From a virus (taxonomy: Duplodnaviria > Heunggongvirae > Uroviricota > Caudoviricetes), in IMG/VR virus record IMGVR_UViG_2541047837_000002: 17,927 nucleotides of DNA, one strand, 5' to 3'. The notes beneath the pieces are model-generated. The model did no database searches. It was not told the origin of the DNA and saw only the letters and a list, made by a program, of their open reading frames with translations. Position 1 is the first letter of the stretch; each line of letters starts with the position of its first letter. Both the position numbers and the translations under genes were made by a program. Of the stretch, positions 997 to 14,179 are shown one piece after another.

Positions 997-1191
997 TACG
1001 TATCCTTATACCTGAAATCTTCGCAAGTATGCCTGGCCGCGAGATTATGGCACACTTGTCCGGTTAACTCTCGTCTCATACAGGTAACACAAACGTGAAA
1101 ATCCTTGTTGATGAAAAAAATGATGATTTAATTTATTGATATAAAAGGATTTATATCAGCACGTGTCCACGTAGTGACCACATTTTCGAGT

Positions 1192-1237
1192 TACAGATAA
1201 CACAAAGCCCGTTTTCACGGGCTTTGTGTTATCTGTG
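1192..1237. terminator. Long near-perfect inverted repeat (about 18-20 bp stem, 6-nt loop) between flk and the AT-rich operon
   Basis: cagataacacaaagcccg / ttttca / cgggctttgtgttatctg read directly. It lies just downstream of the minus-strand 297-aa ORF, but no strong U-tract follows on either strand, so the terminator call is weak. Confidence 0.35.
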
Positions 1238-1263
1238 ATTGTGGCTAAGCCACATGATTTATG

Positions 1264-2157
1264 CTATTTCCAGTTACAAGCAGCTTGAAGTGGTTTTAGC
1301 GCGTTTGACAGGCCGTTTAAATTGAAAGTTGCACTTACAGGGCTCTCATTATAAGGAGTTATTTTTGTATACATTTTGTTTGAGTTGGCTAGTTTTCGGA
1401 TGAAATCAATGTCATTACCTTTATAAAAAACAGCCTTTGTATCTGTAGATACTAGCCAGTTTCGCTCAACTGCTTTCTGTTTATCAAGACGATAAAGCAT
1501 GCTGGTTTGTTCAAGGCCTAAATATACATCCCAACTAAGAAATACTTCGGTTTTCTTTTCTCGGCAAGCTATAAACAGAGTAGGAGTAACCGCTTCTCCA
1601 AATGGAGTTCTGATATAATCATCACTTTCTAACGATAAAATTACATTTTTCGAATCATCAATTGGCGATGTAGTAATGGATGTGTGCCATTTTCCTACAT
1701 CTGTGGCTTTCTCTAATTTTGATTCAGCTTGAACAGCTTTATCCTGTGGGAATAGTTTATCGTAGCAGTTTAGTCTGGCTTCTTTATCATTTTCTGCTCG
1801 GCATTTAGATATCTCAGAAAGATTTGGTTGCTGAGCCTCTGTTGTTACTGGCTTTTCCGTTTTAGATTTTGAGTTTACAGATGGAGTAAATGTTGGAGAA
1901 AAAAAACGATCATAACAAGATAAACGTCTGTCATCATCTTTCTCATCAGGGCATTGATCTCTGTTTTCGAATTTTTCAGCAACTTTCGTTCGAGTCGGTT
2001 GTATTGACTTATCGTAACAAGAAAGTCTGTCTTTATTATTTTCTATTGCTCGGCACTGGAGTACTGCATTGAAGTTATTATGTTCAGTTGCTGCGTGAAC
2101 AGGCAGTACACTAATTGATATAAATGATGCACCTATAGAAAAAATTATATTTTTCAT
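1264..2157 (-). CDS. Secreted protein of unknown function with three Cys-pair repeats
   Basis: 297-aa ORF with an N-terminal signal peptide (MKNIIFSIGASFISISVLPVHA|ATE). Three degenerate repeats of the form C-x8-RL-[SN]-CYD-[KR]: CRAIENNKDRLSCYDK, CPDEKDDDRRLSCYDR, CRAENDKEARLNCYDK. AT-rich codon usage unlike the neighbouring flk. Confidence 0.7.
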   Translation of the reverse strand: MKNIIFSIGASFISISVLPVHAATEHNNFNAVLQCRAIENNKDRLSCYDKSIQPTRTKVAEKFENRDQCPDEKDDDRRLSCYDRFFSPTFTPSVNSKSKTEKPVTTEAQQPNLSEISKCRAENDKEARLNCYDKLFPQDKAVQAESKLEKATDVGKWHTSITTSPIDDSKNVILSLESDDYIRTPFGEAVTPTLFIACREKKTEVFLSWDVYLGLEQTSMLYRLDKQKAVERNWLVSTDTKAVFYKGNDIDFIRKLANSNKMYTKITPYNESPVSATFNLNGLSNALKPLQAACNWK

Positions 2158-2161
2158 TTTG

Positions 2162-2494
2162 TTATCCTTTTGGTTTAGTAAGAAACACTAAAATTCCGAT
2201 AATGATATCGCCAATAACCCATAAACTTCCAATGGTAATTAAACCTAAGCCTGTACCAATAACTGCACCGGCTTTTTCGGCATCGGATGTAGCATTATTT
2301 ATTATTTCACTAGTGCCTCCCAGTCCAACTAAAAGCGTATAGATCATAAAAATATTAAATAATATAAAAATCCACTTAATGAGCTTTCCAAAAAATGAAC
2401 GCTTAAGTTTTTTTATTTGTTTACCGCAAGCAGGGCAATACAATGCTGAATCGCTCACCTCTTTCTGGCATTCAGGACATTTGATTAATGCCAT
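2162..2494 (-). CDS. Small zinc-ribbon membrane protein (N-terminal CxxC-x12-CxxC, two predicted TM helices)
   Basis: 110-aa ORF: MALIKCPECQKEVSDSALYCPACGKQI, then two hydrophobic segments (IKWIFILFNIFMIYTLLVGL and ITIGSLWVIGDIIIGILVF). AAGGAGG-like RBS 8 nt upstream of the ATG. Its stop is 5 nt from the start of the 297-aa ORF, so the two are probably co-transcribed. Confidence 0.7.
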   Translation of the reverse strand: MALIKCPECQKEVSDSALYCPACGKQIKKLKRSFFGKLIKWIFILFNIFMIYTLLVGLGGTSEIINNATSDAEKAGAVIGTGLGLITIGSLWVIGDIIIGILVFLTKPKG

Positions 2495-2755
2495 GTAATC
2501 CGCCTCCTTTGGATCAATACGAGTTGATATTTGTTACAAAACATTTTGATTTTATCAGATTTTTTTTTATTGATAAGTGTCAATTGATTAGCTGGTATAG
2601 AGTGAGACATAAAGAAGGTCAGATCTGTATCAGTAGTGATGCAAAAATCCCACAGTTTCATGGAATTTTTGCATTTAGAGCCGTGAGATAGGGTGCCTTA
2701 TCGACCTTACCCTGGCAACCGATTGACGGGGGATTACTCCCCCGTCGCGGTTTCC

Positions 2756-2896
2756 TTACTGCTTACACTGTAAGAACGCCGCAAACTCCGCTCCCCAGAA
2801 ACTCATCCGTATTTCGCACAGCGAACCGTGCAACATCCAGATGATGAGGATTACCGTCACGCAGAACGTGATGGCTGTAAGCGATTTTTGCGACAT
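2756..2896 (-). CDS. Hok/Gef-family type I toxin (small membrane peptide)
   Basis: 46-aa ORF missing from the ORF track: MSQKSLTAITFCVTVILIIWMLHGSLCEIRMSFWGAEFAAFLQCKQ. It has one TM helix followed by the family-typical SLCEIR ... E-x-AAF-x-x-C motif. GGAG RBS upstream (aaaaGGAGcaagtgctATG). Confidence 0.7.
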   Translation of the reverse strand: MSQKSLTAITFCVTVILIIWMLHGSLCEIRMSFWGAEFAAFLQCKQ

Positions 2897-3086: not shown

Positions 3087-3347
3087 TTAATTCTTAGGTA
3101 AAGGCAAACTCATCTGATTGTTTCCCCTGTGTGAAGCTGGTAGCTCATGCCACGGGATACCTTCTGAAGAGTGAACGCCGGAGGCGTGTTTCGATGTGAA
3201 TTTATGGAAAGCTTCCAGTGTTGAGAAGCATACGCCGCATTCCAGATTGTTACACTGGTAATACTTTTGCCGCACGGTGTTTGAATCATTTTCCGGACGA
3301 CTTGTGCGGATACGGGCAGATGCGCCACAAAGCGGACAACGGAACAT
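3087..3347 (-). CDS. ogr: Ogr/Delta-family zinc-finger late-gene transcriptional activator
   Basis: 86-aa ORF starting MFRCPLCGASARIRTSR ... YYQCNNLECG, i.e. the Cys4 arrangement and N-terminal signature of P2 Ogr (MFHCPLC...RTSR...QC.N..C). GGGAGG RBS upstream. Confidence 0.85.
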   Translation of the reverse strand: MFRCPLCGASARIRTSRPENDSNTVRQKYYQCNNLECGVCFSTLEAFHKFTSKHASGVHSSEGIPWHELPASHRGNNQMSLPLPKN

Positions 3348-3538: not shown

Positions 3539-4561
3539 ATGGGAAGAGATATAACGCTGTACCCTAAAAAAGCAACTAGAAACGAACTTAAAAATTACCT
3601 TGAAAATTTAGGTTTTAAAAGGTGTAAACATTTGTGGGAATGGCCCCAAGGAACGTTGAATTACTCTTGGTTTGATGATACGGACTTCAAATCTACAGAT
3701 GGAGTTTCGGCTGATATATATCCTGTTTCAAATGACGAACTACACATATCTGGTAATAAATGGGCATTGCATGTGCGTAATTTATATAGCGCTAGTTGGC
3801 ATGATGTAAAAATGCTTAATGATGTTCTAAAAGGCGCACGGAGTCTTTTTGGTGGAACACTTATAGGTGATTATGGGAAAAATAGGTACGCTCCTCTATG
3901 GAAGGATTCTAGTAGTCCGATCAGTCGTGGCATTTCTTCAATATTTAATCATGTCCATCATGAGATTTCCGCTGTTAAACATGCCTTACCTGAACCTTCT
4001 ATTAAATTAAACCTACCGGAAGATGGCGGCTTATCCGAATACTTTGATTACATGCAATGTATGGATCCCAGTAGAGTTATATATAATGGATTAGTACCTT
4101 TTGCGGTTGCTATGTTTGAATATTTTTTCTCTAGAGCTTTTCAAATACTTATAAAGTACGATCCTTTCGCAATAGCAAAAAGAACATCGTATAAGCAAAA
4201 AGTTGATTTTGATATTCTGCTTGAGATAGAGAAAGGAAATATTTCAATAGAAAGTGTTATTGCAAGAAATTACACTTTTCAAAACTTAACCCACCTAAAC
4301 AAAGCATATAAAGAGTGGCTGGATATAGATGTGAGAGCGATTCTTTATAAGAAAAAAAGAATTGGAAAATCAGTTGATTTTCTTGAGAATCGAATTTCTG
4401 AAATCATACAATATAGACATGGGATAGTTCATCACTTTGAGTTGGATAGGACCTTAAATCGGGATGGATATATTCATATATTAGATGCGATAGAAAAAAG
4501 CATAATTGAATTTATCCATTACATAGAAGGCAAATACAAATTTAAATTAAATGCGTATTAA
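3539..4561 (+). CDS. Hypothetical cargo protein with a C-terminal HEPN-like Rx4H motif; candidate abortive-infection or defence protein
   Basis: 340-aa ORF, conspicuously AT-rich compared with the flanking ogr and D, with an AT-rich promoter-like upstream region and an AGGTGA RBS. C-terminal segment ENRISEIIQYRHGIVHHFELDR contains R-x4-H. No other family signature recognised. Confidence 0.75.
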   Translation: MGRDITLYPKKATRNELKNYLENLGFKRCKHLWEWPQGTLNYSWFDDTDFKSTDGVSADIYPVSNDELHISGNKWALHVRNLYSASWHDVKMLNDVLKGARSLFGGTLIGDYGKNRYAPLWKDSSSPISRGISSIFNHVHHEISAVKHALPEPSIKLNLPEDGGLSEYFDYMQCMDPSRVIYNGLVPFAVAMFEYFFSRAFQILIKYDPFAIAKRTSYKQKVDFDILLEIEKGNISIESVIARNYTFQNLTHLNKAYKEWLDIDVRAILYKKKRIGKSVDFLENRISEIIQYRHGIVHHFELDRTLNRDGYIHILDAIEKSIIEFIHYIEGKYKFKLNAY

Positions 4562-4681: not shown

Positions 4682-5782
4682 TCACTCTGTTTCTGCTATC
4701 CATTCCGGGATTTTTGCCTCAAGCTCAAGCTGTGTGGTAAAGCCGCTGTTATCAATGGTGTGCTCGGCTTTTGCAATAATCCAGTCCTGATTATCAATCT
4801 CGCTTTTAAAGCCTGTTACCGTGCCATGCATTTCGGGGTAGAGTTCTGCGCGTCCGCGTGCCAGCATGATGGAGAATGATGCGGCTCCGCGTTGTAGCTG
4901 CTGCCACTTTGCCGCCGCTGCGCGTCTTGCTGCCTGCTCGTTCTGATAAGTCTTGCGTAACACAAACACATTGCCTTCCGCGCCTTCCATATAATCACCT
5001 TCACGGCTGCTGCTTTTCTCCTTTTTCGATTTGCGGCGTTTCACGCTGACTTTTTTCTTTTTCCCGTAATTAAGATCAAGCCAGTAGGCGCGTACACCCG
5101 TATACGCCTCGCGGTCAGCAATGCGAAACTGATGGCGATCGCCGCTGCTGCGTGTGATGGCAAACGATGGCAATGGTTTTCCCTGCGCGTTCACGCCACC
5201 GCCTGGCATGATGAATAACAGATTACCGCTTTTTACCGTGGTGATTGCGCCCAGCATTTCCGCCATGCGCGTAAGGAAGGACATGTCACTTTCTTCGGTC
5301 TGGTCGGCGTGGTCGATTTCGATATCCATCAGCATTTCGCTAATTTGCGGTTTCAGACCGTACCGATGAGCGATGGCGGATACCACACGCTCAACGGTCA
5401 CATCATGCCAGGACACCTCACGTTTAACGTTAAATTCATCCCGAAAATCTGCGCTTCTGGCCGAAATGGTCAGCCTGTCCGGCGGTCCTTCGTGAGCGAT
5501 TTCATCAACAATGTAAGTGCCTTTTTCTGTCAGCGGTTCTCCTTTCCAGCCAATGAGAACCGTCAGGCGCGCGCCCCGTGGCGGTAGCTGCAACTGACCA
5601 TCCGCATCATCCAGCGTGATGGTGAGCTGGTCCGCCTCAAATCCCCGGTTGTCGGTCAGTGACAGGCTCATCAGGCGCTCTGCCACGCCTGACAGCGTTT
5701 TACCCTCCGCGAGAATATCAAAATCCGGCATTTTCACGGGGTCTGTGCCCTGACTGAGCAATTGCATGGTGGTGTCGGTCAT
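4682..5782 (-). CDS. D: P2 gpD-like tail protein
   Basis: The ORF track gives 410 aa from a non-ATG start. The likely true start is the ATG at 5782 (MTDTTMQLLSQGTDPVKMPDFDIL...), which has a GGGAGGG RBS 5 nt upstream. Size and sequence are consistent with P2 late gene D. Confidence 0.85.
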   Translation of the reverse strand: MTDTTMQLLSQGTDPVKMPDFDILAEGKTLSGVAERLMSLSLTDNRGFEADQLTITLDDADGQLQLPPRGARLTVLIGWKGEPLTEKGTYIVDEIAHEGPPDRLTISARSADFRDEFNVKREVSWHDVTVERVVSAIAHRYGLKPQISEMLMDIEIDHADQTEESDMSFLTRMAEMLGAITTVKSGNLLFIMPGGGVNAQGKPLPSFAITRSSGDRHQFRIADREAYTGVRAYWLDLNYGKKKKVSVKRRKSKKEKSSSREGDYMEGAEGNVFVLRKTYQNEQAARRAAAAKWQQLQRGAASFSIMLARGRAELYPEMHGTVTGFKSEIDNQDWIIAKAEHTIDNSGFTTQLELEAKIPEWIAETE

Positions 5783-5939
5783 CTGTTCCCTCCCTGTGCG
5801 GCATGGTCGCATGTGCGTGCGGAGGGGGTTACTGCTTTTTGTTGTCGCCGGGTCGGGAGAACGGCGCAGGGGTGAGATTACGCGCGTGGTGGGTGATGAT
5901 TGTTGCCGAATCATTTAACGGATACAAGGGGCTGAAGCT

Positions 5940-7124
5940 ATGAGTGAAACTCGTTTTCATGGTGCCCGTGTTACGGAAAATACCGACCTGGTAACAGCGA
6001 TTAACGATGTTGATTCCAGCGTTATCGGTATCGTGGCAACGGCGGATGATGCGGACGCGAAGCTGTTCCCGCTGAACAAGCCCACACTGCTGACCCGCGT
6101 CAATGACGTGCTGGGAAAATGCGGGACAACGGGGACGCTTTATCGTGCACTTAAGGCCATCGCAGACCAGGTGAGCACAAAGGTGATCGTCGTTCGCGTG
6201 GCTGAACACAAAGAAGAAGACGGAAAGACGCAGGATCAACTGGTTATCGGTGGTTCTGAGGATGACGGCAGCTATACGGGGATGTATGCGCTGCTTGTTG
6301 CAGAGCAGGATGAAAGCATCGGATACCGTCCGCGTATTCTGGCCGCGCCGGAGCTGGACACGGAGGCTGTAACAAAATCCCTGTGCGTGATTGCAGGTAA
6401 ACTGCGCGCGTTTGTGTATGCCTCATGTTACGGCTGTAACACGATGGCTGAGGCGATTACCTACCGCCAGAAATTCAACGAACGTGAGGTGATGCTCTTA
6501 TGGCCGGACTTCATCGCCTACAACCCGAAAAGTGGCAAAAACGAAACGTTCCCCGCGCCTGCCTATGCGTGCGGCCTTCGTGCGTACATTGACCATGAGC
6601 AGGGCTGGCACAAATCATTGTCCAACGTTCCGGTTAAAAATGTGCTGGGGATGTCGAGGCATGTGTTCTGGTCGTTGCAGGCCGAAGACAGCGATGCCAA
6701 CAGCCTCAACAACAAAGAAATCACGACCATTATTCGTCGCAACGGGTTCCGCTTCTGGGGCAACCGCACACCGGAAACGAACGCCTACATCTTTGAGGTG
6801 TATACCCGAACCGCACAGGTGCTGGCTGATTCAATTGCGGAAGCGCAGTTTGAAACCATCGACAGTCCACTGACGCCTGCGAATGTGAAGGATGTTATCA
6901 GTGCCATCAGGGCAAAACTGGATTCGCTGGTTACTGCCGGGAAACTGATTGGTGCGGAGTGCTGGTATGACGTGGTGGATAACGGCACCACGAATTTACG
7001 TCAGGGGCGTGTGCGTATTCGCTACAAATATACGCCCGTTCCGCCACTGGAAGACATGGAGCTTTACCAGACGTTTACTGATGAATACTTTGAACCCGCA
7101 TTTGCGGTGCTGGGAGGTGCCTGA
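5940..7124 (+). CDS. FI: Contractile tail sheath protein (P2 FI-like)
   Basis: 394-aa ORF with conserved blocks shared with P2 FI as I recall it (FPLNKP, KLRAF.Y, EQGWHK.LSNV, RRNGFRFWGNRT, YKYTPVPPLE). Stop overlaps the FII start (TGATG). Confidence 0.9.
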   Translation: MSETRFHGARVTENTDLVTAINDVDSSVIGIVATADDADAKLFPLNKPTLLTRVNDVLGKCGTTGTLYRALKAIADQVSTKVIVVRVAEHKEEDGKTQDQLVIGGSEDDGSYTGMYALLVAEQDESIGYRPRILAAPELDTEAVTKSLCVIAGKLRAFVYASCYGCNTMAEAITYRQKFNEREVMLLWPDFIAYNPKSGKNETFPAPAYACGLRAYIDHEQGWHKSLSNVPVKNVLGMSRHVFWSLQAEDSDANSLNNKEITTIIRRNGFRFWGNRTPETNAYIFEVYTRTAQVLADSIAEAQFETIDSPLTPANVKDVISAIRAKLDSLVTAGKLIGAECWYDVVDNGTTNLRQGRVRIRYKYTPVPPLEDMELYQTFTDEYFEPAFAVLGGA

Positions 7125-7636
7125 TGGCTGTGCCAAAACATCTTCGCTTTTTTACGCTGTTTGTGGATGGTGAAAACGAAGTGGGTAAGGTGACGTCCGT
7201 CACTCTGCCTAAGCTGACGCGCAAAACCGACAGCTACCGGGGGGGCGGCATGATGGGTGCGGTAAGCATTGATCTCGGTCTGGAAGACTCCGCGCTTGAT
7301 GCGAGCTTTGTCATGGGGGGCGCAGTTCGTGAGCTGTTCCTTAAGTATGGCGGCACGATTGACGGCACGCTGCTGCGTTTTGCGGGTGAATACTACACCG
7401 ATGCAGAAAGTGACCTGTATGAAGTCGAAATGCGCGGACGTGTGACGGAAATTGATATGGGGGAAGCCAAACAGGGCGAAGCCACATCACACACTTACGC
7501 CATTAAAAACACCTACTACAAGCTGAGTGTTAACGATCGCCCGTTGTGGGAGATTGACCTGCTGAACTTCATTTACCGGAAGGACGGCAAGGACATTGTG
7601 CCCGATCGCATCCGTTCCGCGCTCGGGCTTGGCTGA
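7124..7636 (+). CDS. FII: Tail tube protein (P2 FII-like)
   Basis: 170-aa ORF immediately after the sheath gene with a 1-nt stop/start overlap. Size and position match P2 FII. Confidence 0.88.
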   Translation: MAVPKHLRFFTLFVDGENEVGKVTSVTLPKLTRKTDSYRGGGMMGAVSIDLGLEDSALDASFVMGGAVRELFLKYGGTIDGTLLRFAGEYYTDAESDLYEVEMRGRVTEIDMGEAKQGEATSHTYAIKNTYYKLSVNDRPLWEIDLLNFIYRKDGKDIVPDRIRSALGLG

Positions 7637-7690
7637 TAAGTAATATGCAGGCGGCGCAGTGCGTCGCCTCTGACTGAAAGGAGTTTCCTG

Positions 7691-8056
7691 ATGAAAGAGA
7701 CGAAAAACATCGATACCGAAAACACGGTAGTTACTGACACTGTGAAAGAAACCAGTGAGCGTGGCGTAAAACTTACCCAACCAATTGAGCGAGGCGGCGA
7801 AAAAATCACGTATGTGGAGATCACCGGGGCTATTGAGCAGGCTGGATCTCTGCGAGATTTGTCGCTGTCTGATGTGCTGAATCTGAAAGCGGAATCCATG
7901 TTTACGCTGCTGTCACGCGTGACATCACCGCGACTGGATGAAGTGACGATCAAAAAAATGGCATCCCGTGACTTTATTCAGTTATGTGTGGTTGCCGTAA
8001 ATTTTTTGAGCGGTGCGGACTCTGGCGGGAAGAACGAACAGGCGACGGAAGCCTGA
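7691..8056 (+). CDS. E: Tail assembly chaperone E (zero-frame product)
   Basis: 121-aa ORF with an AAGGAG RBS. The internal block DVLNLKAESMFTLLSRVTSP resembles P2 gpE. It contains the TTTTTTG slippery heptamer near its 3' end. Confidence 0.8.
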   Translation: MKETKNIDTENTVVTDTVKETSERGVKLTQPIERGGEKITYVEITGAIEQAGSLRDLSLSDVLNLKAESMFTLLSRVTSPRLDEVTIKKMASRDFIQLCVVAVNFLSGADSGGKNEQATEA

Positions 8057-8220
8057 TCACGGTTGTGTGCTTTGAGCACATTGAAGACTTTGTGGCAGAT
8101 ATTGCCGTTATTTTTAACTGGTCGCCCGCCGAAATCTTCATGATGACGCCCGGCGAAGTGGTTAGCTGGCGTGAGCGGGCGGCACTTCGCAGCGGGAATG
8201 CAGACAATGAAGACTCTTGA
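7691..8220 (+). CDS. E+E' tail chaperone fusion made by programmed -1 ribosomal frameshift
   Basis: The -1 frame ORF 7984-8220 has no plausible independent start and continues from the slippery site at 8002-8008. This is the conserved chaperone pair located between tube and tape-measure genes. Confidence 0.7.
8002..8008 (+). promoter_or_regulatory. -1 frameshift slippery heptamer T TTT TTG
   Basis: X XXY YYZ heptamer in the E reading frame (codons AAT TTT TTG). After a -1 shift it reads FFERCGLW..., identical to the 7984-8220 ORF. Confidence 0.7.
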
Positions 8221-11014
8221 TATCCGGGTCGCTTTCAGCGCCGTTGACAGGCTGACCCGACCTGCCGAAAACGCCCGCCGCCTGATGGGGCAGTTTGGTG
8301 ACTCCATCCAGCGAACGCAGGGGGCGATCAAAAATCTCGAGCGTCAGGCGCGATCATTTGAGCGCGCCCGCGACGCTGTCAGTAAAGCGGACGCGGGCAT
8401 CGTGAAAGCACGACGCCAGCTTAACGCCCTTAATCAGTTACAACGCACGGGTACAGTGCTCAGCGAAAAACAACAAAAGCTGATGCAGCAGTTAAGCACC
8501 CGGCTTGAACGCCTGAATGAATCGCGCACACGGGAAATTCAGAAAATGCGGGAGCTTGGCGGAGAACTGAAACGCCACGGCATTTCCCTGACAGGCAGCG
8601 ATAACACCATTCAGCAGGCCATCAGACGCACCGAACAGTACAACAACCAGCTTGAACGCGAACGGCAGGCGCTTGCGCGTGTAACGCGGGCGCGTGAGCG
8701 GTATTCGCGCGCGCAGGAAACCGCGGGAAAACTGAAAACAGGTGGTGCGCTGGCAATTGGTGCGGCAGCGGCGGGCGGCTATGCTGCCGGGCGTTTTTTG
8801 CAGCCTGCGATCGGGTTCGGCAAAGAGATGTCCCGCGTTCAGGCACTGACGCGAATCGACAAAAACAGCCCGCAGTTTAAGGCGCTGCGTGAGCAGGCGT
8901 TAAAACTGGGCTCTGAAACGCAGTTCACCGCAGGCGATGCCGCCAGTGGGCAGGCATTTCTTGCAATGGCTGGCTTTACACCACAGGCCATTCAGGCTGC
9001 GCTCCCTGGCGTACTGAGCATGGCAACGGCTGGCGGTATGGACCTCGGTGAGACGGCGGATATTGGCTCAAATATTCTGACGCAGTTCGGTCTTTCTGCT
9101 GACCAGATGGACCGGGTCGGCGACACACTCACCGCAGCGTTTACCCGTACCAACACTGACCTTCGCGCACTGGGTGAAACCATGAAATATGCAGGTCCGG
9201 TGGCGGGTAAGCTGGGAATATCGCTGGAGCAGGCCGCAGCGATGGCGGGCGTGCTGGCGAATATGGGTATCAGGGGGAGTGATGCTGGTACGGCAATGCG
9301 TGCCAGCCTGGCTCGTCTGGCATCACCGCCAAAGGCGGCAGCAGAGGCGCTGAAAGAGCTTGGCGTGTCTGTCTCGGATGCCGGGGGCAAAATGCGCCCG
9401 ATGGAGGATGTGCTGGCTGACCTTTATAAAGCTACCCGCAAATACGGGGAAGTTGACCGGGTATCGTTCTTTAAGGACATTGCCGGAGAAGAGGCTTTCA
9501 CATCATTTATGGCCCTCGTTGATGCGGCAGGTGACGGCTCCTTACCCAAACTGAGAAAAGAACTTGAAGGCGCGCGCGGTGAGGCTGAACGCACGGCAAA
9601 GGTTATGGCCAACAACCTTGACGGCGATCTGAAATCACTCAGCAGTGCATGGGAAGGGTTGCGCATCCGCATTGCAGATCTGATTGACGGTCCGCTGCGT
9701 TCTGTCACGCAGTGGCTCACGCGTGTGGTATCAAAGGTGACGGCGCTGGCGCAGGCCCATCCCGCACTGACGCGCCAGCTACTGATTGCAGGCGGTGCAC
9801 TGCTGGCAATGACTGCAACGGTTGGCTCGTTGTCGCTGGCTATTGGTGTGCTTGCTGGCCCGCTGGCAAAACTGCGTCTTGGTTTTTCCCTCCTGACCGG
9901 ATCAATGAATGCTGTCAGGGTTCTGCCAGCACTATGGGGAATGGTGACGGGTTCCGTTTCTTTACTGGGAGGCGCTATCGGGGCGTTGTTCAGTCCGGTT
10001 GGTCTTATCGTGGCTGCGCTTGCCGGAGCTGCCGTTCTTATCTGGAAATACTGGGATCCCATCAGGGCATTTTTTGCCGGGGTGTTCAGCGGGATTATGG
10101 AAAGGCTGACCCCGTTGCGCGAAACCTTTGAACGGTTTGGTCCTGTTTTTGACGCAATCGGGAGTGGGATCAGCCAGGTGTTTAACTGGTTTAAATCGCT
10201 GCTGTCACCGATGGAGTCCAGCAAGGAAACTCTGGATAAATGTACCAGTGCTGGCGAGATATTCGGTAACGTTCTTGGCGGTGCGTTACAGCTTGTTCTG
10301 ACACCTGCAAAAATGTTGCTGGATACGCTGGCGTGGATACTTGAAAAGCTTGGTGTGCTTCCGGATGAAGCGGAAAGGGCGCGCAAGAAAATCGAAGACG
10401 CACAGCGTGCGGCCATTCTTCAGGACAAGGTTGCCTTGCTTCAGGGGGACCTGGCGAAAATCAATCCGCCGAAGCCTGTGGAAAATGGCAATGGCACCGG
10501 AGGTGATAACCCCAAAGACAATAAACCGCTCACAGACAGCAATACCGGTACGCTGCGCAGACTCAGCAAAATTGCTGATAACACAGGTAAGCTGGTTGAG
10601 GAGACGAAAAAACGCATTGGCCCCGGCGATATTGTCTTTAAAAACCTGCCCCGAGCACTTGCTGTTCGTGGGGAGTGGCAGGAGCGGAAGATTGCGCAGG
10701 TCAGTAAGCCTGCCCCCGCAATTAATATCACACCCGTGGTCCCGGCTCCGCTGCCTCCGGCGCTGGTCCCTGTTGTTGCGGCCAGCTCCCGCCCGGTGGC
10801 GGAGGCTATACGATCTCCAGTGGCATCAGTTCCTGTAACTTCCCGTAACCGGGAGCCTGTTGCCTCCGGATTTGGTGGTGAAATTCATGTTCATCTGCAT
10901 AACGTTGTTACGCAGAATCCCCGCGAACTGGCGAAACTGGTCGGTGAAATGGTCAGGGCAGAAATGGAACGGCGCGCCCGTGCCGGGCGTGGCAGTTTTT
11001 ACGATAAAGATTGA
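8198..11014 (+). CDS. T: Tail tape-measure protein (P2 gpT-like)
   Basis: Ala/Gly-rich ORF of about 938 aa with a coiled-coil N-terminal part and internal hydrophobic segments, placed between E/E' and U. The start is uncertain between the ATGs at 8198 and 8207; the ORF track's 8171 is a non-ATG start. Confidence 0.88.
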   Translation: MQTMKTLDIRVAFSAVDRLTRPAENARRLMGQFGDSIQRTQGAIKNLERQARSFERARDAVSKADAGIVKARRQLNALNQLQRTGTVLSEKQQKLMQQLSTRLERLNESRTREIQKMRELGGELKRHGISLTGSDNTIQQAIRRTEQYNNQLERERQALARVTRARERYSRAQETAGKLKTGGALAIGAAAAGGYAAGRFLQPAIGFGKEMSRVQALTRIDKNSPQFKALREQALKLGSETQFTAGDAASGQAFLAMAGFTPQAIQAALPGVLSMATAGGMDLGETADIGSNILTQFGLSADQMDRVGDTLTAAFTRTNTDLRALGETMKYAGPVAGKLGISLEQAAAMAGVLANMGIRGSDAGTAMRASLARLASPPKAAAEALKELGVSVSDAGGKMRPMEDVLADLYKATRKYGEVDRVSFFKDIAGEEAFTSFMALVDAAGDGSLPKLRKELEGARGEAERTAKVMANNLDGDLKSLSSAWEGLRIRIADLIDGPLRSVTQWLTRVVSKVTALAQAHPALTRQLLIAGGALLAMTATVGSLSLAIGVLAGPLAKLRLGFSLLTGSMNAVRVLPALWGMVTGSVSLLGGAIGALFSPVGLIVAALAGAAVLIWKYWDPIRAFFAGVFSGIMERLTPLRETFERFGPVFDAIGSGISQVFNWFKSLLSPMESSKETLDKCTSAGEIFGNVLGGALQLVLTPAKMLLDTLAWILEKLGVLPDEAERARKKIEDAQRAAILQDKVALLQGDLAKINPPKPVENGNGTGGDNPKDNKPLTDSNTGTLRRLSKIADNTGKLVEETKKRIGPGDIVFKNLPRALAVRGEWQERKIAQVSKPAPAINITPVVPAPLPPALVPVVAASSRPVAEAIRSPVASVPVTSRNREPVASGFGGEIHVHLHNVVTQNPRELAKLVGEMVRAEMERRARAGRGSFYDKD

Positions 11015-11020
11015 GGAGTC

Positions 11021-11515
11021 ATGGCCATGATGATGATCTACGGCATGTTTGTTTTTGAGCTGCGCACGCTGCCGCATCAGCAGTTACAGCAAAACAAAAG
11101 CTGGCGGCATGTGAAAAATGAACGCGTTAACCGTTCAGCAAGCTGGCAGTATATCGGTGCAGGTGATGATCGCATCGTTCTTTCTGGTGTGCTTTATCCT
11201 GAAATTACAGGTGGCGAAGTGTCGCTGTCGCTGCTGACCACGCAGGCGTATACAGGACGACCCTGGCCTTTGATTGATGGCGTCGGGCAGATTTACGGCA
11301 TGTATGTCCTGACTGAAACGAATACGACCCGCTCCGAGTTTGATCGCTACGGTAAGGCGAAAAAGATAGAATTTTCACTGACTCTTGAACGCTGTGATGA
11401 GGATTTGCGGGAGCGCCTGCAATCCTCATCGTTCAGTGATATGCTGTCCGGCTTCAAAGATAAGGTGACATCATCTCTTAACAGCGCGGCCAGTTCAGTT
11501 AAAGGGCTGTTCTGA
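11021..11515 (+). CDS. U: Tail protein U (P2 gpU-like)
   Basis: 164-aa ORF (MAMMMIYGMFVFELRTLPHQ ... YPEITGG ... YGMYVLTE) resembling P2 gpU, directly after the tape-measure gene. Confidence 0.85.
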   Translation: MAMMMIYGMFVFELRTLPHQQLQQNKSWRHVKNERVNRSASWQYIGAGDDRIVLSGVLYPEITGGEVSLSLLTTQAYTGRPWPLIDGVGQIYGMYVLTETNTTRSEFDRYGKAKKIEFSLTLERCDEDLRERLQSSSFSDMLSGFKDKVTSSLNSAASSVKGLF

Positions 11516-11526
11516 TTTAACACAAA

Positions 11527-11556
11527 AACCGCTAATGGTCAGATTAGCGGTTTTCA
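11527..11556. terminator. Bidirectional intrinsic terminator between U (+) and the invertase gene (-)
   Basis: Stem aaccgctaat / attagcggtt (11527-11536 and 11543-11552) with loop ggtcag, flanked by T-runs on both strands (ttttcatttt downstream on plus; ttttgtgtt on minus). Confidence 0.6.
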
Positions 11557-12143
11557 TTTTCCTGAGTCTGCCCGGTTGTTTCTTCAGTCTGTATATCGCC
11601 TACAGGGTGATAACGATAAATCGTCGATGTGCCAATGCCGTAAATTATTGCCAGTTGTTTTCTGTCGTGCCCGTTTTTGATTAGCCTTGCTATTTGCTCA
11701 TGCTGTTCTTTTGTCAGCTTCGGTCGACGTCCGCCTGTGCGCCCCCTTGCGCGCGCTGCCGCCAGCCCGGCCAGTGTACGTTCAACAATTAATTCACGTT
11801 CCATTTCAGCCAGGGCACCCATCACGTGGAAGAAAAAACGCCCCATTGGAGAAGATGTGTCTATGCTGTCGGTCAGACTGCGAAAATTAATCCCTCGCTC
11901 CCGTAGTTCCCCGACGAGAGAAATCAGATGTTTCATGCTTCGCCCGAGGCGATCCAGTTTCCAGACAACCAGCGTGTCACCTTTTTGAAGGCGCTTTAAA
12001 GCGCGTTTTAATCCCGGTCGGTCTGTCTTTGTCCCGCTTAATTTATCTTCAAATATTTGTTCACATCCTGCACAAACAAGAGCGTTTCGTTGCAGGTCTG
12101 TATTCTGGTCATTTGTTGATACCCTTACATAGCCAATCAGCAC
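11544..12143 (-). CDS. Serine-recombinase DNA invertase (Hin/Gin/Cin/Pin family)
   Basis: The N-terminus LIGYVRVSTNDQNTDLQ carries the catalytic-Ser motif of the resolvase/invertase family, and a C-terminal HTH-like region (LAIIYGIGTSTIYRY) follows. The likely start is the GTG at 12143, preceded by AGGAGA; the ORF track's 12161 is a TTG further upstream. Confidence 0.85.
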   Translation of the reverse strand: MLIGYVRVSTNDQNTDLQRNALVCAGCEQIFEDKLSGTKTDRPGLKRALKRLQKGDTLVVWKLDRLGRSMKHLISLVGELRERGINFRSLTDSIDTSSPMGRFFFHVMGALAEMERELIVERTLAGLAAARARGRTGGRRPKLTKEQHEQIARLIKNGHDRKQLAIIYGIGTSTIYRYHPVGDIQTEETTGQTQENENR

Positions 12144-12197
12144 ACTGAATCTCCTGTCCAAAAGCGCAAATCATGCCATGCAGGCCAGAAACGGCCA

Positions 12198-12223
12198 TTA
12201 TTTAAAACCTCGGTTTACAGGAA
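12198..12223. other. Invertase crossover site, gix/hix-like 26-bp (left boundary of invertible segment)
   Basis: ttatttaaaacc-tc-ggtttacaggaa has imperfect dyad symmetry with half-sites TTATTTAAAACC and TTCCTGTAAACC around a 2-bp core. It matches the reverse complement of the site at 14876-14901 at 21 of 26 positions. Confidence 0.75.
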
Positions 12224-13084
12224 ACGGTAAACAGGGCTGGTAACGCCGTGCAAAAAAATGGCGATACCTTGTCCGGTGGGCTTACTTTTGAAAATGACTC
12301 AATCCTTGCCTGGATTCGAAATACTGACTGGGCGAAGATTGGATTTAAAAATGATGCCGATGGTGACACTGATTCATACATGTGGTTTGAAACAGGCGAC
12401 AACGGCAATGAATATTTCAAATGGAGAAGCCGCCAGAGCACCACAACAAAAGACCTGATGACGCTGAAATGGGATGCACTAAATATTCTTGTTAATGCTG
12501 TCATTAATGGCAGTCTTGGAGTTGGTTCGACGAATGCGTTAGGTGGTAGCTCTATTGTTCTTGGTGATAATGACACCGGATTTAAACAGAATGGAGACGG
12601 TATTCTGGATGTTTATGCTAATAGTCAGCGTGTATTCCGCTTTCAGAATGGAGTGGCTATTGCTTTTAAAAATATTCAGGCCGGGGATGGTAAAAAATTC
12701 ACGCTATCCAGCTCCAACAACTCCACAAAGAATGCAACGTTTAATTTATGGGGTGCTTCAACCCGTCCAGTAGTTGCAGAGTTAGGCGATGAGGCAGGAT
12801 GGCATTTCTATAGCCAGCGAAATACAGATAACTCGGTAATATTTTCTGTTAACGGTCAGATACAGCCCAGCAACTGGGGGAATTTTGATTCACGCTATGT
12901 AAAAGATGTTCGCCTGGGTACGCGTGTTGTTCAATTGATGGCGCGTGGTGGTCGTTATGAAAAAGCCGGACACGCAATTACCGGATTAAGAATCATTGGT
13001 GAAGTAGATGGCGATGATGAAGCCATCTTCAGACCAATACAAAAATACATCAATGGCACATGGTATAACGTCGCACAGGTGTAA
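12212..13084 (+). CDS. Silent alternative tail-fibre C-terminal (host-range) cassette Sv', promoterless in this orientation
   Basis: The reading frame is open from the crossover core (GLQETVNRAGNAVQKNGDTLSGGL...) and ends with INGTWYNVAQV, parallel to the expressed fibre C-terminus ...INGTWYNAGSI. The ORF track begins it at the GTG at 12248. Confidence 0.75.
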   Translation, partial: GLQETVNRAGNAVQKNGDTLSGGLTFENDSILAWIRNTDWAKIGFKNDADGDTDSYMWFETGDNGNEYFKWRSRQSTTTKDLMTLKWDALNILVNAVINGSLGVGSTNALGGSSIVLGDNDTGFKQNGDGILDVYANSQRVFRFQNGVAIAFKNIQAGDGKKFTLSSSNNSTKNATFNLWGASTRPVVAELGDEAGWHFYSQRNTDNSVIFSVNGQIQPSNWGNFDSRYVKDVRLGTRVVQLMARGGRYEKAGHAITGLRIIGEVDGDDEAIFRPIQKYINGTWYNVAQV

Positions 13085-13087
13085 ATT

Positions 13088-13615
13088 ATGCAGCATTTAA
13101 AAAATATTAAGTCCGGAAATCCAAAAACAAAAGAACAATATCAGCTAACAAAAAATTTTGATGTTATCTGGTTATGGTCCGAAGACGGTAAAAACTGGTA
13201 TGAGGAAGTAAATAACTTTCAGGACGACACCATAAAGATTGTATACGACGAAAATAATATTATTGTTGCCATAACCAAAGATGCCTCAACACTTAATCCC
13301 GAAGGCTTTAGCGTCGTTGAGATTCCCGATATAACAGCCAATCGTCGTGCCGATGATTCAGGGAAGTGGGTGTTTAAGGACGGAACTGTGGTTAAGCGGA
13401 TTTATACAGCAGACGAACAGCAACAACAGGCCGAATCACAAAAGGCCGCGTTACTTTCAGAAGCTGAATCAGTCATCCAGCTTCTGGAACGTGCTGTCAG
13501 GCTGAATATGGCAACAGATGAGGAACGTACACGACTGGAAGCCTGGGAACGCTACAGCGTTCTGGTCAGCCGCGTGGATACGGCAAAGCCAGAATGGCCA
13601 CAAAAACCAGAGTAA
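13088..13615 (+). CDS. Tail-fibre assembly chaperone (silent copy, Tfa/gpG-like)
   Basis: 175-aa ORF paralogous to the minus-strand chaperone at 13644-14177 (shared [19 protein letters not shown] and [17 protein letters not shown] blocks). Confidence 0.8.
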
Positions 13616-13620
13616 AAATT

Positions 13621-13640
13621 AAGGCCCGATATCGGGCCTT
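13621..13640. terminator. Palindromic bidirectional terminator at the centre of the invertible segment
   Basis: 20-bp perfect palindrome aaggcccgatatcgggcctt between the two convergent chaperone genes, followed on the minus strand by a U-run (aattttt). Confidence 0.55.
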
Positions 13641-13643
13641 CTC

Positions 13644-14177
13644 TCATTCTGGTTGTTCGGGAAACGTTACTGGCAGGCTGGAGGTGTCTGTAGATTCGAC
13701 TTTCTGCGCAAAGAGCATCCACTCGGTTAATTTCTGCTTATTCTCGTCGGAAATGATGCCCAGCCGTAGCTGTGAGTCCCATAGCTGGGTTTTATCCCTG
13801 ACAAGTTGCAACAGGCTTTGCTTTTCATTTTCCGCTTGTTGTCTCTGCTCTTCCTCGGTATAAGTTCGCTTTATCACTACGCCATCTTTGAACATCCATT
13901 TCCCCGAAATATCAGCCCGGCGATTTGCTGTAATATCAGGTAATTCAACGACGCTTGCGCCTTCCGGATTAATTGCTGAAACATCCTTTTCAATACAAAT
14001 AATAACGCCGTTATGGTCATAGACCATTTTCAAAGTGTCTGGCTGGAAATTCTTTTGTTCCTCATACCAGTTTTTTCCATCATCTGAATAAAGCCATTTG
14101 ATGTTAAATTGCTTTGTTAGCTGATATTGCTCTTTTGTTTTAGGGTTGCCAGCAGTAATGTTTTTTAAGTGCATCAT
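13644..14177 (-). CDS. Tail-fibre assembly chaperone (expressed orientation, Tfa/gpG-like)
   Basis: 177-aa ORF directly downstream of the tail-fibre gene with a 4-nt overlap. Paralogue of 13088-13615. Confidence 0.85.
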   Translation of the reverse strand: MMHLKNITAGNPKTKEQYQLTKQFNIKWLYSDDGKNWYEEQKNFQPDTLKMVYDHNGVIICIEKDVSAINPEGASVVELPDITANRRADISGKWMFKDGVVIKRTYTEEEQRQQAENEKQSLLQLVRDKTQLWDSQLRLGIISDENKQKLTEWMLFAQKVESTDTSSLPVTFPEQPE

Positions 14178-14179
14178 CG

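What the first reader, a model, noticed from the sequence alone, without database searches (positions are those of the whole stretch)
1264..2700. AT-rich two-gene envelope module: zinc-ribbon membrane protein plus secreted protein with three C-x8-RLxCYD repeats
Seen in sequence: two tightly linked minus-strand ORFs (2494 to 2162, then 2157 to 1264) sit in a block that is visibly AT-rich relative to flk and the phage genes. The first has a cytoplasmic CPEC...CPAC zinc ribbon followed by two TM helices. The second has a cleavable signal peptide, three repeats each with a Cys pair, and a C-terminal domain of about 130 aa that I cannot place. Inference: a horizontally acquired periplasm-facing module, possibly a membrane sensor with a periplasmic partner, an immunity-type protein, or an uncharacterised defence or exclusion pair. 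I cannot assign either protein to a named family.
Basis: partly seen in the sequence, partly recalled or inferred. Interest (0 to 1): 0.6.

Follow-up and report, generated by a model that had tools for sequence, protein, structure and literature searches.

The report
Prophage cargo pair facing the periplasm
The two genes are real, but they are accessory cargo at the end of a defective P2-like prophage: a small zinc-ribbon membrane protein and an exported relative of the poorly understood type VI secretion protein VasI/TagO, a pair that many P2-like prophages of enterobacteria carry and whose job is still unknown.

Summary
Two coupled minus-strand genes (2494-2162, 110 aa; 2157-1264, 297 aa) lie in a 33-39% GC block.

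Both genes can now be placed:
- The 297-aa protein passes the Pfam VasI threshold (PF11319), and NCBI's PGAP annotation calls it "TagO". Its C-terminal domain models as an IalB-like beta-sandwich.
- Its three C-x8-RLxCYD units are a triplication of the single N-terminal motif of the family. That motif is a mobile periplasmic module also found on phospholipase A1, Sel1 and TonB_C proteins.
- The 110-aa protein is a C4 zinc ribbon plus a two-helix membrane hairpin weakly similar to the division and Rcs-activating protein DrpB.

The pair lies inside a P2-like prophage inserted in the first codons of pdxB, between ogr and attR (core 1098-1117).
- The same pair follows ogr in 65 of 75 viral contigs.
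- T6SS core genes were found next to it in none of them.
- 240 of 5,426 complete E. coli genomes carry it.
- Intact alleles are under purifying selection, and the pair persists in degraded prophages.

The function is untested. My best guess (about 0.35) is a lysogen-expressed envelope guard against incoming injection machines. Rivals are Rcs or divisome modulation, a T6SS accessory acting in trans, and abortive infection. It is a new variant of a known, uncharacterised family and of moderate interest.

The parts
1098..1117 (.). Prophage attachment-site core (attR side), AAAATCCTTGTTGATGAAAA. It equals codons 2-7, and part of codon 8, of pdxB.
   Evidence: A perfect 20-nt direct repeat has its second copy at the start of pdxB in strain VE-F10 (L002 37111-37130). 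It occurs once in the window, with 0 expected by chance. The K-12 empty site equals the window's flk side plus the core plus pdxB.
1193..1236 (-). A 20-bp perfect hairpin just downstream of the gene 2 stop codon. It looks like a terminator but has no U-run.
   Evidence: Folding window 1190-1263 (-) gives -43.4 kcal/mol, z = -10.5 against shuffles.
1264..2157 (-). Gene 2, a 297-aa exported VasI/TagO-family protein. Sub-features: signal peptide (aa 1-22, nt 2157-2092); three disulfide-type helical hairpin motifs C-x8-RLxCYD (aa 35-49 = nt 2055-2011; aa 69-83 = nt 1953-1909; aa 119-133 = nt 1803-1759); IalB-like beta-sandwich (aa 155-297 = nt 1695-1267).
2162..2494 (-). Gene 1, a 110-aa inner-membrane protein. 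Cytoplasmic C4 zinc ribbon (aa 4-26, nt 2485-2417) plus a DrpB-like two-helix membrane hairpin (aa 28-109, nt 2413-2168). Shine-Dalgarno AGGAGG at 2508-2503.
   Evidence: ORF. Zn_Ribbon_1 E 1.8e-07. phrog_6586 E 7.4e-43 over the full length. NCBIfam DrpB NF038392 E 1.4e-4, positions 2-84 of 86, below its cut-off. Helices 34-66 and 71-105. Family conservation. dN/dS 0.19-0.29.
2549..2576 (-). Sigma-70-like promoter candidate upstream of gene 1: TTATCA, 16 nt, TAAAAT, with TG before the -10 hexamer.
   Evidence: Consensus scan, 9 of 12 matches. The region holds no more such sites than shuffled sequence does (4 found, 6.3 expected), so this is only a candidate.
2724..2747 (-). G+C-rich hairpin after the hok-like gene. 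It separates the ogr-hok unit from the AT-rich pair.
   Evidence: -25.3 kcal/mol, z = -5.2; also listed.
2756..2896 (-). Context: a Hok/Gef-family toxin gene of 46 aa, another prophage cargo gene.
   Evidence: Pfam HOK_GEF E 3.7e-07; phrog_251 E 2.5e-23.
3087..3347 (-). Context: ogr, the P2 late-gene activator. It is the last backbone gene of the prophage before the cargo.
   Evidence: Pfam Ogr_Delta E 5.1e-14; the same gene order appears in phage records.

Best explanation
SHOWN. This is a two-gene accessory operon (a 'moron') at the ogr-attR end of a P2-like (Peduoviridae) prophage. In this window the prophage is a defective remnant of about 16.8 kb, inserted in the first codons of pdxB.
- Gene 1 encodes a small inner-membrane protein: a cytoplasmic C4 zinc ribbon joined to a two-helix hairpin with a very short periplasmic loop.
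- Gene 2 encodes a protein with a signal peptide, three tandem copies of a Cys-bracketed helical hairpin (C-x8-RLxCYD), and a VasI-family, IalB-fold beta-sandwich.

INFERRED. The pair is expressed from the resident prophage. It works at the periplasmic face of the inner membrane as an envelope guard, a superinfection-exclusion-type function.
- The exported VasI-fold protein, held near or cooperating with the membrane protein, would bind a periplasmic component of an incoming envelope-crossing injection machine, or a host component that machine needs. The machine could be a phage tail, a tailocin or a T6SS.
- This would block productive penetration of the inner membrane.
- The extra hairpin copies would add valency or reach.

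The identity and context part I hold at about 0.9. The exclusion mechanism I hold at about 0.35, and that is the confidence given.
For: Position:
- The pair lies inside the att boundaries, after ogr and before attR. It has the same position in the phages 500465-2, PhiR44_2 and Klebsiella 3LV2017, where attR is annotated after the pair.

Linkage:
- Of 75 IMG/VR contigs that encode the protein, 65 have the zinc-ribbon gene directly upstream. 67 have ogr, 67 have gpD and 66 have the tail sheath gene. None has T6SS core genes nearby.
- The same pair sits at different chromosomal sites in Klebsiella, Raoultella, Dickeya, Brenneria and Enterobacter.

Accessory character:
- GC is 33-39% against about 50-60% in the phage backbone.
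- There is a candidate promoter and strong flanking hairpins.
- Canonical virion and lysis functions are encoded elsewhere.

Retention:
- The pair survives in heavily degraded prophages. This window keeps only tail genes and the integrase. Enterobacter remnants keep the pair next to a KAP NTPase gene.
- Intact alleles are under purifying selection (dN/dS 0.05-0.29).

Localisation and fold:
- The protein has a signal peptide.

Analogy by position:
- Solo VasI-like exported genes sit directly after CI-type repressor genes in Brucella phage BiPBO1 and Klebsiella phage ST11-VIM1phi8.1. One sits next to the integrase of a non-P2 element.
- From general knowledge, these are typical places for genes expressed in lysogens, including exclusion genes.

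Family phenotype:
- V. cholerae VasI (VCA0118) is dispensable for Hcp and VgrG secretion but is needed for killing. The family therefore acts on how an injection machine performs at the envelope, not on its assembly (PMC3166118).
Against: - There is no sequence match to any known defence or exclusion family (PADLOC: none).
- Expression in the lysogen is not shown. The pair lies downstream of ogr on the same strand, and the promoter call is weak, so lytic-phase expression is possible.
- One E. coli allele group (about 92% identity) carries a frameshift that splits gene 2. The same split is seen in 6 of 75 viral contigs. The gene is therefore dispensable in some lineages.
- Some P2-like prophages carry gene 2 without gene 1, or with a different zinc-ribbon/TM2 protein on the opposite strand.
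- Gene 1 also occurs alone in Pantoea and Haemophilus. A strict two-part mechanism is therefore not proven.
- The fold matches give no biochemical activity.
Confidence: 0.35

Rival explanations
1. Envelope-state converter acting through the DrpB-like membrane protein. Gene 1 would mimic DrpB, which joins the divisome and, in multicopy, switches on the Rcs (capsule) and Psp responses. Gene 2 would modulate or sense from the periplasm. The lysogen would gain capsule-mediated or stress-mediated protection, or altered division. This overlaps the best explanation in outcome (protection) but differs in mechanism: signalling rather than direct blocking.
For: - Residues 28-109 of gene 1 align collinearly with the whole NCBIfam DrpB profile (positions 2-84 of 86; E 1.4e-4).
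- Several homologues carry precomputed Pfam PF28000 DrpB hits.
- BLASTP against K-12 DrpB gives E 4e-5 for the single comparison, and hhalign gives E 1.6e-3.
- DrpB T89, the only tested residue required for Rcs induction, aligns with T106, which is invariant in the family.
- DrpB has the same layout: about 100 aa, two TM helices and a tiny periplasmic loop (PMC11709261).
Against: - All scores are below the curated cut-offs (22.1 against 50 bits).
- hhalign probability is only 16%.
- In my shuffle test the family HMM scored DrpB at 5.2 bits. That score was reached by 2 of 2,000 global shuffles and by 12 of 2,000 shuffles that keep the hydrophobic layout. The similarity is suggestive, not proven.
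- DrpB has no zinc ribbon and no VasI-like partner.
- The alternative partner in another prophage is TM2-type and shares only the zinc ribbon.
Confidence: 0.2
2. T6SS accessory supplied in trans. The prophage would give its host an extra VasI/TagO that tunes the host's own type VI secretion system, which would be lysogenic conversion of interbacterial competitiveness.
For: - The protein belongs to the VasI family by Pfam.
- It is homologous to the E. coli T6SS-cluster VasI (26% identity over 195 aa, E 5e-11).
- VasI is needed for full T6SS killing in V. cholerae.
- P2-type tails and the T6SS are related contractile machines (general knowledge).
Against: - No T6SS core gene lies within the flanks of any phage-type locus. 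That is 0 of 75 viral contigs and none of the genomic loci. The control locus L026 was detected.
- The score is below the equivalog cut-off of TIGR03360 (76.2 against 124.2 bits).
- T6SS-cluster VasI has no zinc-ribbon partner.
- Related solo genes occur in phages of Brucella and Pasteurella. To my knowledge these hosts lack a T6SS; this was not tested here.
Confidence: 0.15
3. Abortive-infection-type sensor and effector. The exported protein would sense envelope damage or a periplasmic phage component. The zinc-ribbon two-helix protein would be a membrane-disrupting effector that kills or arrests the infected cell.
For: - Small two-TM proteins are common effectors in defence systems (general knowledge).
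- The two genes are tightly coupled (4-nt gap).
- The pair has prophage cargo status next to other conflict genes: hok, and a HEPN-like gene between ogr and gpD.
- In Enterobacter the pair sits beside a KAP NTPase gene.
Against: - There is no PADLOC match.
- Gene 1 occurs alone as a conserved chromosomal gene in Pantoea and Haemophilus, without an apparent partner to restrain it.
- One contig carries a fusion that keeps only the zinc ribbon in front of gene 2's signal peptide and lacks the two-helix part. It is a single record, so it carries little weight.
Confidence: 0.1
4. Host-interaction or virulence-type surface factor, as the name of the structural relative IalB ('invasion-associated locus B') suggests, or some other lysogenic-conversion trait unrelated to phage or T6SS conflict.
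For: - The module occurs in extraintestinal pathogenic strains such as IHE3034 and avian pathogenic isolates.
- Zheng et al. speculated that VasI might act as an adhesin.
Against: - The pair is spread across plant-associated, environmental and commensal Enterobacterales: Dickeya, Brenneria, Pantoea, Pectobacterium and Raoultella.
- Nothing in the sequence points to outer-membrane or surface exposure. It has a signal peptide only, with no lipobox and no beta-barrel.
- The IalB mechanism is itself unknown.
Confidence: 0.1

Closest known systems
T6SS-associated protein VasI / TagO (Pfam PF11319, formerly DUF3121; TIGR03360; V. cholerae VCA0118; E. coli T6SS-cluster VasI)
   Same: - Homologous over the last hairpin motif plus the whole C-terminal domain. 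Pfam E is 2.5e-25. Identity to EDL933 VasI is 26%.
- Both have a signal peptide and the C-x8-RLxCYD motif.
- The conserved Cys pair in the beta domain (C198 and C294) is kept.
   Different: - Three motif copies instead of one.
- The score is below the equivalog cut-off.
- It is never next to T6SS genes. It is prophage cargo after ogr, coupled to a zinc-ribbon membrane gene.
- The parent family has no known mechanism. A 2026 review lists its function as 'Unknown' (PMC13584744).
IalB, invasion-associated locus B protein (Pfam PF06776; PDB 3dtd, Bartonella henselae)
   Same: - There is a weak sequence signal (E 5.3e-4).
   Different: - The sequence score is below the Pfam threshold (20.6 against 22.1 bits).
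- IalB lacks the hairpin motifs.
- Its taxonomic and genomic context is different.
- Its function is also unknown.
DrpB (YedR), a small divisome-associated inner-membrane protein of E. coli that activates Rcs in multicopy
   Same: - Same size and layout of the membrane part: two TM helices and a minimal periplasmic loop.
- Collinear weak similarity from RSxxGKL to the C-terminal TRP(K/R).
- DrpB T89 aligns with the invariant T106.
   Different: - Gene 1 has an N-terminal C4 zinc ribbon that DrpB lacks.
- The similarity is below curated cut-offs and only modestly above shuffles.
- Gene 1 is phage-borne and has an exported partner.
Periplasm- or membrane-located superinfection-exclusion proteins of phages (P1 Sim, T4 Imm and Sp, HK97 gp15, P22 SieA), recalled from general knowledge
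   Same: - Prophage-encoded accessory genes whose products sit in the inner membrane or periplasm.
- Located outside the virion and replication modules.
- Retained in lysogens.
   Different: - No sequence or fold relationship was found.
- The exclusion activity of this pair is an inference, not a result.
P2 lysogenic-conversion genes (old, tin, Z/fun) and cargo slots of P2-like phages, recalled from general knowledge
   Same: AT-rich, non-essential cargo of P2-like prophages with presence/absence variation between relatives.
   Different: - The slot is different: ogr-att rather than the old/tin or Z/fun slots.
- The products act in the envelope rather than the cytoplasm.
- There is no homology.

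Membership tests
VasI/TagO (Pfam PF11319) | Sequence match above the Pfam gathering score | tested here: met
   89.6 bits against a cut-off of 26.5. Residues 118-296 cover profile positions 1-184 of 184.
VasI/TagO (NCBIfam TIGR03360 equivalog) | Score above the equivalog cut-off, meaning the same function as T6SS VasI | tested here: not met
   76.2 bits against a cut-off of 124.2. Identity to the E. coli T6SS-cluster VasI is only 26%.
VasI/TagO | Architecture: signal peptide, one C-x8-RLxCYD motif, and a beta domain with a conserved Cys pair | tested here: met
   All elements are present, but the motif is triplicated. Homologues carry 1, 2 or 3 copies.
VasI/TagO | Encoded within a T6SS gene cluster ('T6SS-associated') | tested here: not met
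   tblastn with TssB, TssC, TssF, TssH, TssK and Hcp found none in the flanks of any phage-type locus. That is 0 of 75 viral contigs and none of the genomic loci. The control cluster L026 was detected.
VasI/TagO | Contributes to T6SS-dependent killing | not testable with these tools
   The only experimental datum comes from V. cholerae VCA0118 (PMC3166118).
IalB (Pfam PF06776) | Sequence match above the gathering score | tested here: not met
   20.6 bits against 22.1, E 5.3e-4.
IalB fold | Structural similarity of the C-terminal domain | tested here: met
   [not shown]
DrpB/YedR (NF038392, PF28000) | Sequence match above the curated cut-off | tested here: not met
   22.1 bits against 50. hhalign probability 16%. 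Shuffle test: 2 of 2,000 global and 12 of 2,000 layout-preserving shuffles reach the real score.
DrpB/YedR | About 100 aa, two TM helices, minimal periplasmic loop, conserved C-terminal Thr | tested here: met
   Helices 34-66 and 71-105. T106 is invariant and aligns with DrpB T89. An extra N-terminal zinc ribbon is present.
DrpB/YedR | Septal localisation and Rcs activation | not testable with these tools
   Needs reporter and localisation experiments (PMC11709261).
Prophage moron / lysogenic-conversion cargo | Lies inside the prophage boundaries but outside the backbone modules | tested here: met
   The att core flanks the element. The pair lies between ogr and attR, as in phage records.
Prophage moron / lysogenic-conversion cargo | Composition differs from the backbone, and presence varies among related phages | tested here: met
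   GC 33-39% against 50-60%. Related prophages have variants with 1 to 3 motifs, without gene 1, or with other cargo.
Prophage moron / lysogenic-conversion cargo | Own promoter and terminator; expressed in the lysogen | tested here: inconclusive
   One weak promoter-like site, not enriched over shuffles. Strong hairpins on both sides but without U-runs. No expression data.
Known anti-phage defence systems (PADLOC-DB) | Match to a defence-system protein model | tested here: not met
   No hit for either protein at E <= 0.01.

The most novel reading that the evidence does not exclude
The zinc-ribbon/DrpB-like membrane protein and the multi-hairpin VasI-fold periplasmic protein form a previously unrecognised kind of envelope-level defence carried by P2-like prophages. 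It would stop contractile injection machines (superinfecting myophages, R-type tailocins, T6SS) at the periplasm or inner membrane, or sound an Rcs-type alarm. By extension, the long-unexplained T6SS accessory protein VasI/TagO would be a device that manages or protects the envelope around a firing injection machine.
Probability: 0.15. Interest if true: 0.75.

Novelty: new variant of a known kind. Interest (0 to 1): 0.42.

Why it matters
- VasI/TagO is one of the T6SS accessory proteins still listed as 'function unknown'. A distinct branch of the family travels as cargo of P2-like prophages and never sits next to T6SS genes. It is tightly coupled to a conserved zinc-ribbon membrane protein. 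This gives a simple two-gene system, testable in E. coli K-12 or C, for asking what the fold does.
- If the pair protects lysogens at the envelope, it adds a periplasmic layer to the known cytoplasmic defences of P2-like phages. It would also explain why the pair is kept in decaying prophages.
- If it acts through a DrpB-like route, it would be a phage-encoded input into envelope stress signalling.
- The work also corrects an annotation habit. 'T6SS-associated' on these prophage genes should not be read as evidence of a T6SS or of virulence cargo.
- The C-x8-RLxCYD hairpin turns out to be a mobile periplasmic module shared with outer-membrane phospholipase A1, Sel1 and TonB_C proteins. That is a small finding of its own.

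Tried and rejected
Searches that found nothing or could not be run:
- PADLOC gave no hit for either protein, nor for the neighbouring 340-aa gene.
- A sequence search of the PDB with the family profile gave only noise, E >= 0.15.
- The AlphaFold-database fold library was not available. The viral fold library returned only uncharacterised phage proteins, including some from T4-like phages.
- The genome-collection scan with the broad alignment failed for lack of a conserved stretch. The narrower alignment returned only 10 loci, so I used viral contigs for the census.
- Literature: there was nothing on the phage pair, its accession numbers or PF11319. The only experimental paper on the family is Zheng et al. 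2011.

Ideas considered and given little weight:
- Natural fusion as Rosetta-stone evidence. P0052 joins the zinc ribbon to gene 2's signal peptide. It is a single contig and looks like an in-frame deletion that removes the two membrane helices.
- The TM2-domain protein next to a two-motif VasI-like gene in another E. coli prophage. It shares only the zinc ribbon with gene 1, and it is on the opposite strand. It is not the same partner.
- An independent genomic island next to flk. This is rejected by the att-site analysis.
- A rearranged prophage (gpD and ogr opposite to the FI-U genes). This is rejected because it is the normal order in this Peduoviridae lineage.
- Complex prediction. The structure tool takes single chains only, and the two ORFs are not in frame, so I did not attempt it.
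Full report
**1. What is in the sequence**

The two minus-strand ORFs exist as described: 2494-2162 (110 aa) and 2157-1264 (297 aa).
- Four nucleotides separate the first stop codon from the second ATG. An AGGAGG box lies 8 nt before the first ATG.
- GC content falls to 0.33-0.39 across 1001-2600. It is 0.49-0.55 in flk and 0.50-0.61 in the phage tail genes.
- A 20-bp perfect hairpin (1236-1193, -43 kcal/mol, z -10.5) follows the second gene. A G+C-rich hairpin (2747-2724) precedes the AT-rich upstream region.
- One weak sigma-70-like site lies at 2576-2549. Such sites are not enriched over shuffled sequence.

**2. Where it sits**

RefSeq genomes identical to the window show this gene order: fabB, yfcJ, flk, [TagO, zinc-ribbon protein, Hok, Ogr, hypothetical, gpD, tail genes ... 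integrase], pdxB.
- A perfect 20-nt direct repeat, AAAATCCTTGTTGATGAAAA, lies at window 1098-1117 and again at the start of pdxB.
- The K-12 flk-pdxB empty site equals the window's flk side, plus the core, plus the pdxB side of the lysogen.
- Everything from 1118 onward is therefore prophage. The pair lies 147 nt inside attR, after ogr.
- The window equals VE-F10 coordinates from flk to the end of the integrase. One internal segment is inverted.
- In the VE-F10 annotation, tail protein I is truncated and is followed directly by the integrase. The element in the window is thus a defective remnant of about 16.8 kb.

**3. Identity of the proteins: gene 2**

- It matches Pfam VasI (PF11319; 89.6 bits, cut-off 26.5). 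Residues 118-296 span the whole profile.
- It matches phrog_1848.
- It scores below the equivalog cut-off of TIGR03360 (76.2 against 124.2 bits).
- It shares 26% identity with the VasI encoded inside the E. coli EDL933 T6SS cluster.
- The AlphaFold2 model is confident for residues 155-297 (pLDDT above 90). It places each Cys pair in a helical hairpin.
- Homologues carry one, two or three copies of the C-x8-RLxCYD unit. The copy next to the beta domain is the ancestral one.
- A profile of the unit finds 336 cluster representatives at E <= 0.001, usually right after a signal peptide and sometimes in tandem.
- Among 82 longer hits, the accompanying Pfam domains are VasI (56), Sel1 (5), phospholipase A1 (4), and TonB_C, among others. 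The unit is therefore a mobile periplasmic module.

**4. Identity of the proteins: gene 1**

- It is a C4 zinc ribbon followed by two long helices joined by a very short loop.
- The family is highly conserved, with 72% mean column identity across Enterobacterales and a Haemophilus sequence. Invariant residues include C6, C20, C23, W92, G95, T106 and P108.
- It matches phrog_6586 over its full length.
- Its membrane part aligns collinearly with DrpB/YedR. NCBIfam gives E 1.4e-4 over positions 2-84 of 86. BLASTP against K-12 DrpB gives E 4e-5 and hhalign gives E 1.6e-3. DrpB T89 aligns with T106.
- This similarity is below the curated cut-offs. In my shuffle control, the real score was reached by 2 of 2,000 global shuffles and by 12 of 2,000 layout-preserving shuffles. 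I treat it as probable but unproven.
- DrpB is a divisome-associated protein. In multicopy it activates Rcs through the RcsC periplasmic domain, and T89 is required for that (PMC11709261).

**5. Distribution and linkage**

- The pair occurs in 240 of 5,426 complete E. coli genomes, in several allele groups.
- It is present in deposited P2-like phages of Escherichia, Citrobacter and Klebsiella. In Klebsiella phage 3LV2017, attR is annotated just after it.
- It occurs in prophages at other chromosomal sites in Klebsiella, Dickeya, Raoultella, Brenneria and E. coli ECONIH5.
- It is also present in Enterobacter remnants that have lost nearly all phage genes.
- Among 75 IMG/VR contigs: 65 have gene 1 directly upstream, 67 have ogr, 67 have gpD, and 66 have the sheath gene. 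None has T6SS core genes. 44 have three motifs, 3 have two, and 28 have one. Six of the one-motif cases are frameshifted three-motif alleles.
- Exceptions: gene 2 alone after ogr; gene 2 opposite a zinc-ribbon TM2-domain gene; gene 1 alone in Pantoea and Haemophilus; and orphan gene 2 relatives in Photobacterium.
- More distant exported VasI-like genes sit right after repressor genes in a Brucella phage and a Klebsiella phage. Others sit among tail genes of a Pasteurella phage, and next to the integrase of a non-P2 element.

**6. Selection**

- Between intact E. coli alleles, dN/dS is 0.05-0.07 for the beta domain, 0.23-0.37 for the signal peptide plus repeats, and 0.19-0.29 for gene 1.
- One allele group, about 92% identical to the window, has a frameshift after the second motif.

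**7. What is known about the family**

- A 2026 review lists the function of TagO/VasI as unknown.
- In V. cholerae, VCA0118 is not needed for Hcp or VgrG-1 secretion. It is needed for killing of amoebae and contributes to killing of E. coli.
- I found no paper on the phage-borne pair.

**8. Interpretation**

What is shown:
- The pair is prophage cargo.
- It consists of an inner-membrane zinc-ribbon protein and an exported VasI/IalB-fold protein with a triplicated hairpin module.
- It is widely conserved after ogr in P2-like prophages, under purifying selection, and not linked to T6SS genes.

What is inferred, with rough probabilities:
- 0.35: a lysogen-expressed envelope guard of the superinfection-exclusion type.
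- 0.2: envelope-state conversion through a DrpB-like route (Rcs, Psp or the divisome).
- 0.15: a T6SS accessory acting in trans.
- 0.1: an abortive-infection sensor and effector.
- 0.1: a host-interaction factor.
- The remainder is unassigned.

The label 'T6SS-associated' fails the context test for this branch. I therefore file the protein as a new variant of the VasI family, not as a T6SS component.

**9. Verdict**

It is of moderate interest as a tractable entry point to an uncharacterised fold and as a conserved, unstudied prophage cargo.

Noticed in passing
window 12194-14905 (invertase gene 11544-12161, minus strand): The tail-fibre segment next to a Hin/Cin-type recombinase gene is in the opposite orientation to the otherwise near-identical genomes VE-F10 and IHE3034. 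This is an invertible host-range segment caught in its other state.
   Followed up: partly
window 1098-1117, and L002 37087-37130: The prophage integrates within the first codons of pdxB. On the integrase side, phage DNA replaces the native pdxB upstream region and its GTG start, and the annotated pdxB start moves upstream into phage sequence.
   Followed up: partly
window 3539-4561 (+): An AT-rich 340-aa gene sits between ogr and gpD on the opposite strand. It has a weak HEPN_RiboL-PSP match (E 1.2e-4, below cut-off) and no PADLOC, PHROG or NCBIfam hit. It is absent from phage PhiR44_2 and is replaced by an alpha/beta-hydrolase gene in another E. coli prophage. This is a second variable cargo slot and a possible defence gene.
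   Followed up: partly
window 2756-2896 (-): A 46-aa Hok/Gef-family toxin gene (MokW-like PHROG) lies between ogr and the pair. It is present in the E. coli versions of the prophage but not in the Klebsiella or Dickeya versions.
   Followed up: partly
window 4682-11515: gpD and ogr are transcribed divergently from the FI-FII-E-T-U tail genes. This looked like a rearrangement compared with P2, but it is the standard order in this Peduoviridae lineage (Gemsvirus, Reginaelenavirus and related prophages).
   Followed up: yes
L027 (DEQA01000038.1, 'Planococcaceae bacterium UBA3378'): A 4.2-kb contig of a Firmicute metagenome-assembled genome encodes proteins 97-100% identical to the window's pair, hok and gpD fragment (its ogr is only 75% identical). 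It is most likely contamination of that bin.
   Followed up: no
L037 (E. coli AST20) 1483-2393; also L061 and L068-L072: An allele group about 92% identical to the window carries a 1-nt frameshift after the second hairpin motif. RefSeq then annotates a 'hypothetical protein' plus a shortened 'TagO'.
   Followed up: yes
L010-L012 (Pantoea, cueR-copA interval): The zinc-ribbon gene alone is a conserved Pantoea gene that sits exactly where P2-like phages integrate; in one genome an integrase lies next to it. It may be a domesticated relic of an earlier prophage.
   Followed up: no
L017 9097-9513 and L026 17166-17615: LprI/DUF1311-type genes (a lysozyme-inhibitor family) lie near an orphan VasI-like gene in Photobacterium and at the edge of the E. 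coli EDL933 T6SS cluster. This may be coincidence.
   Followed up: no
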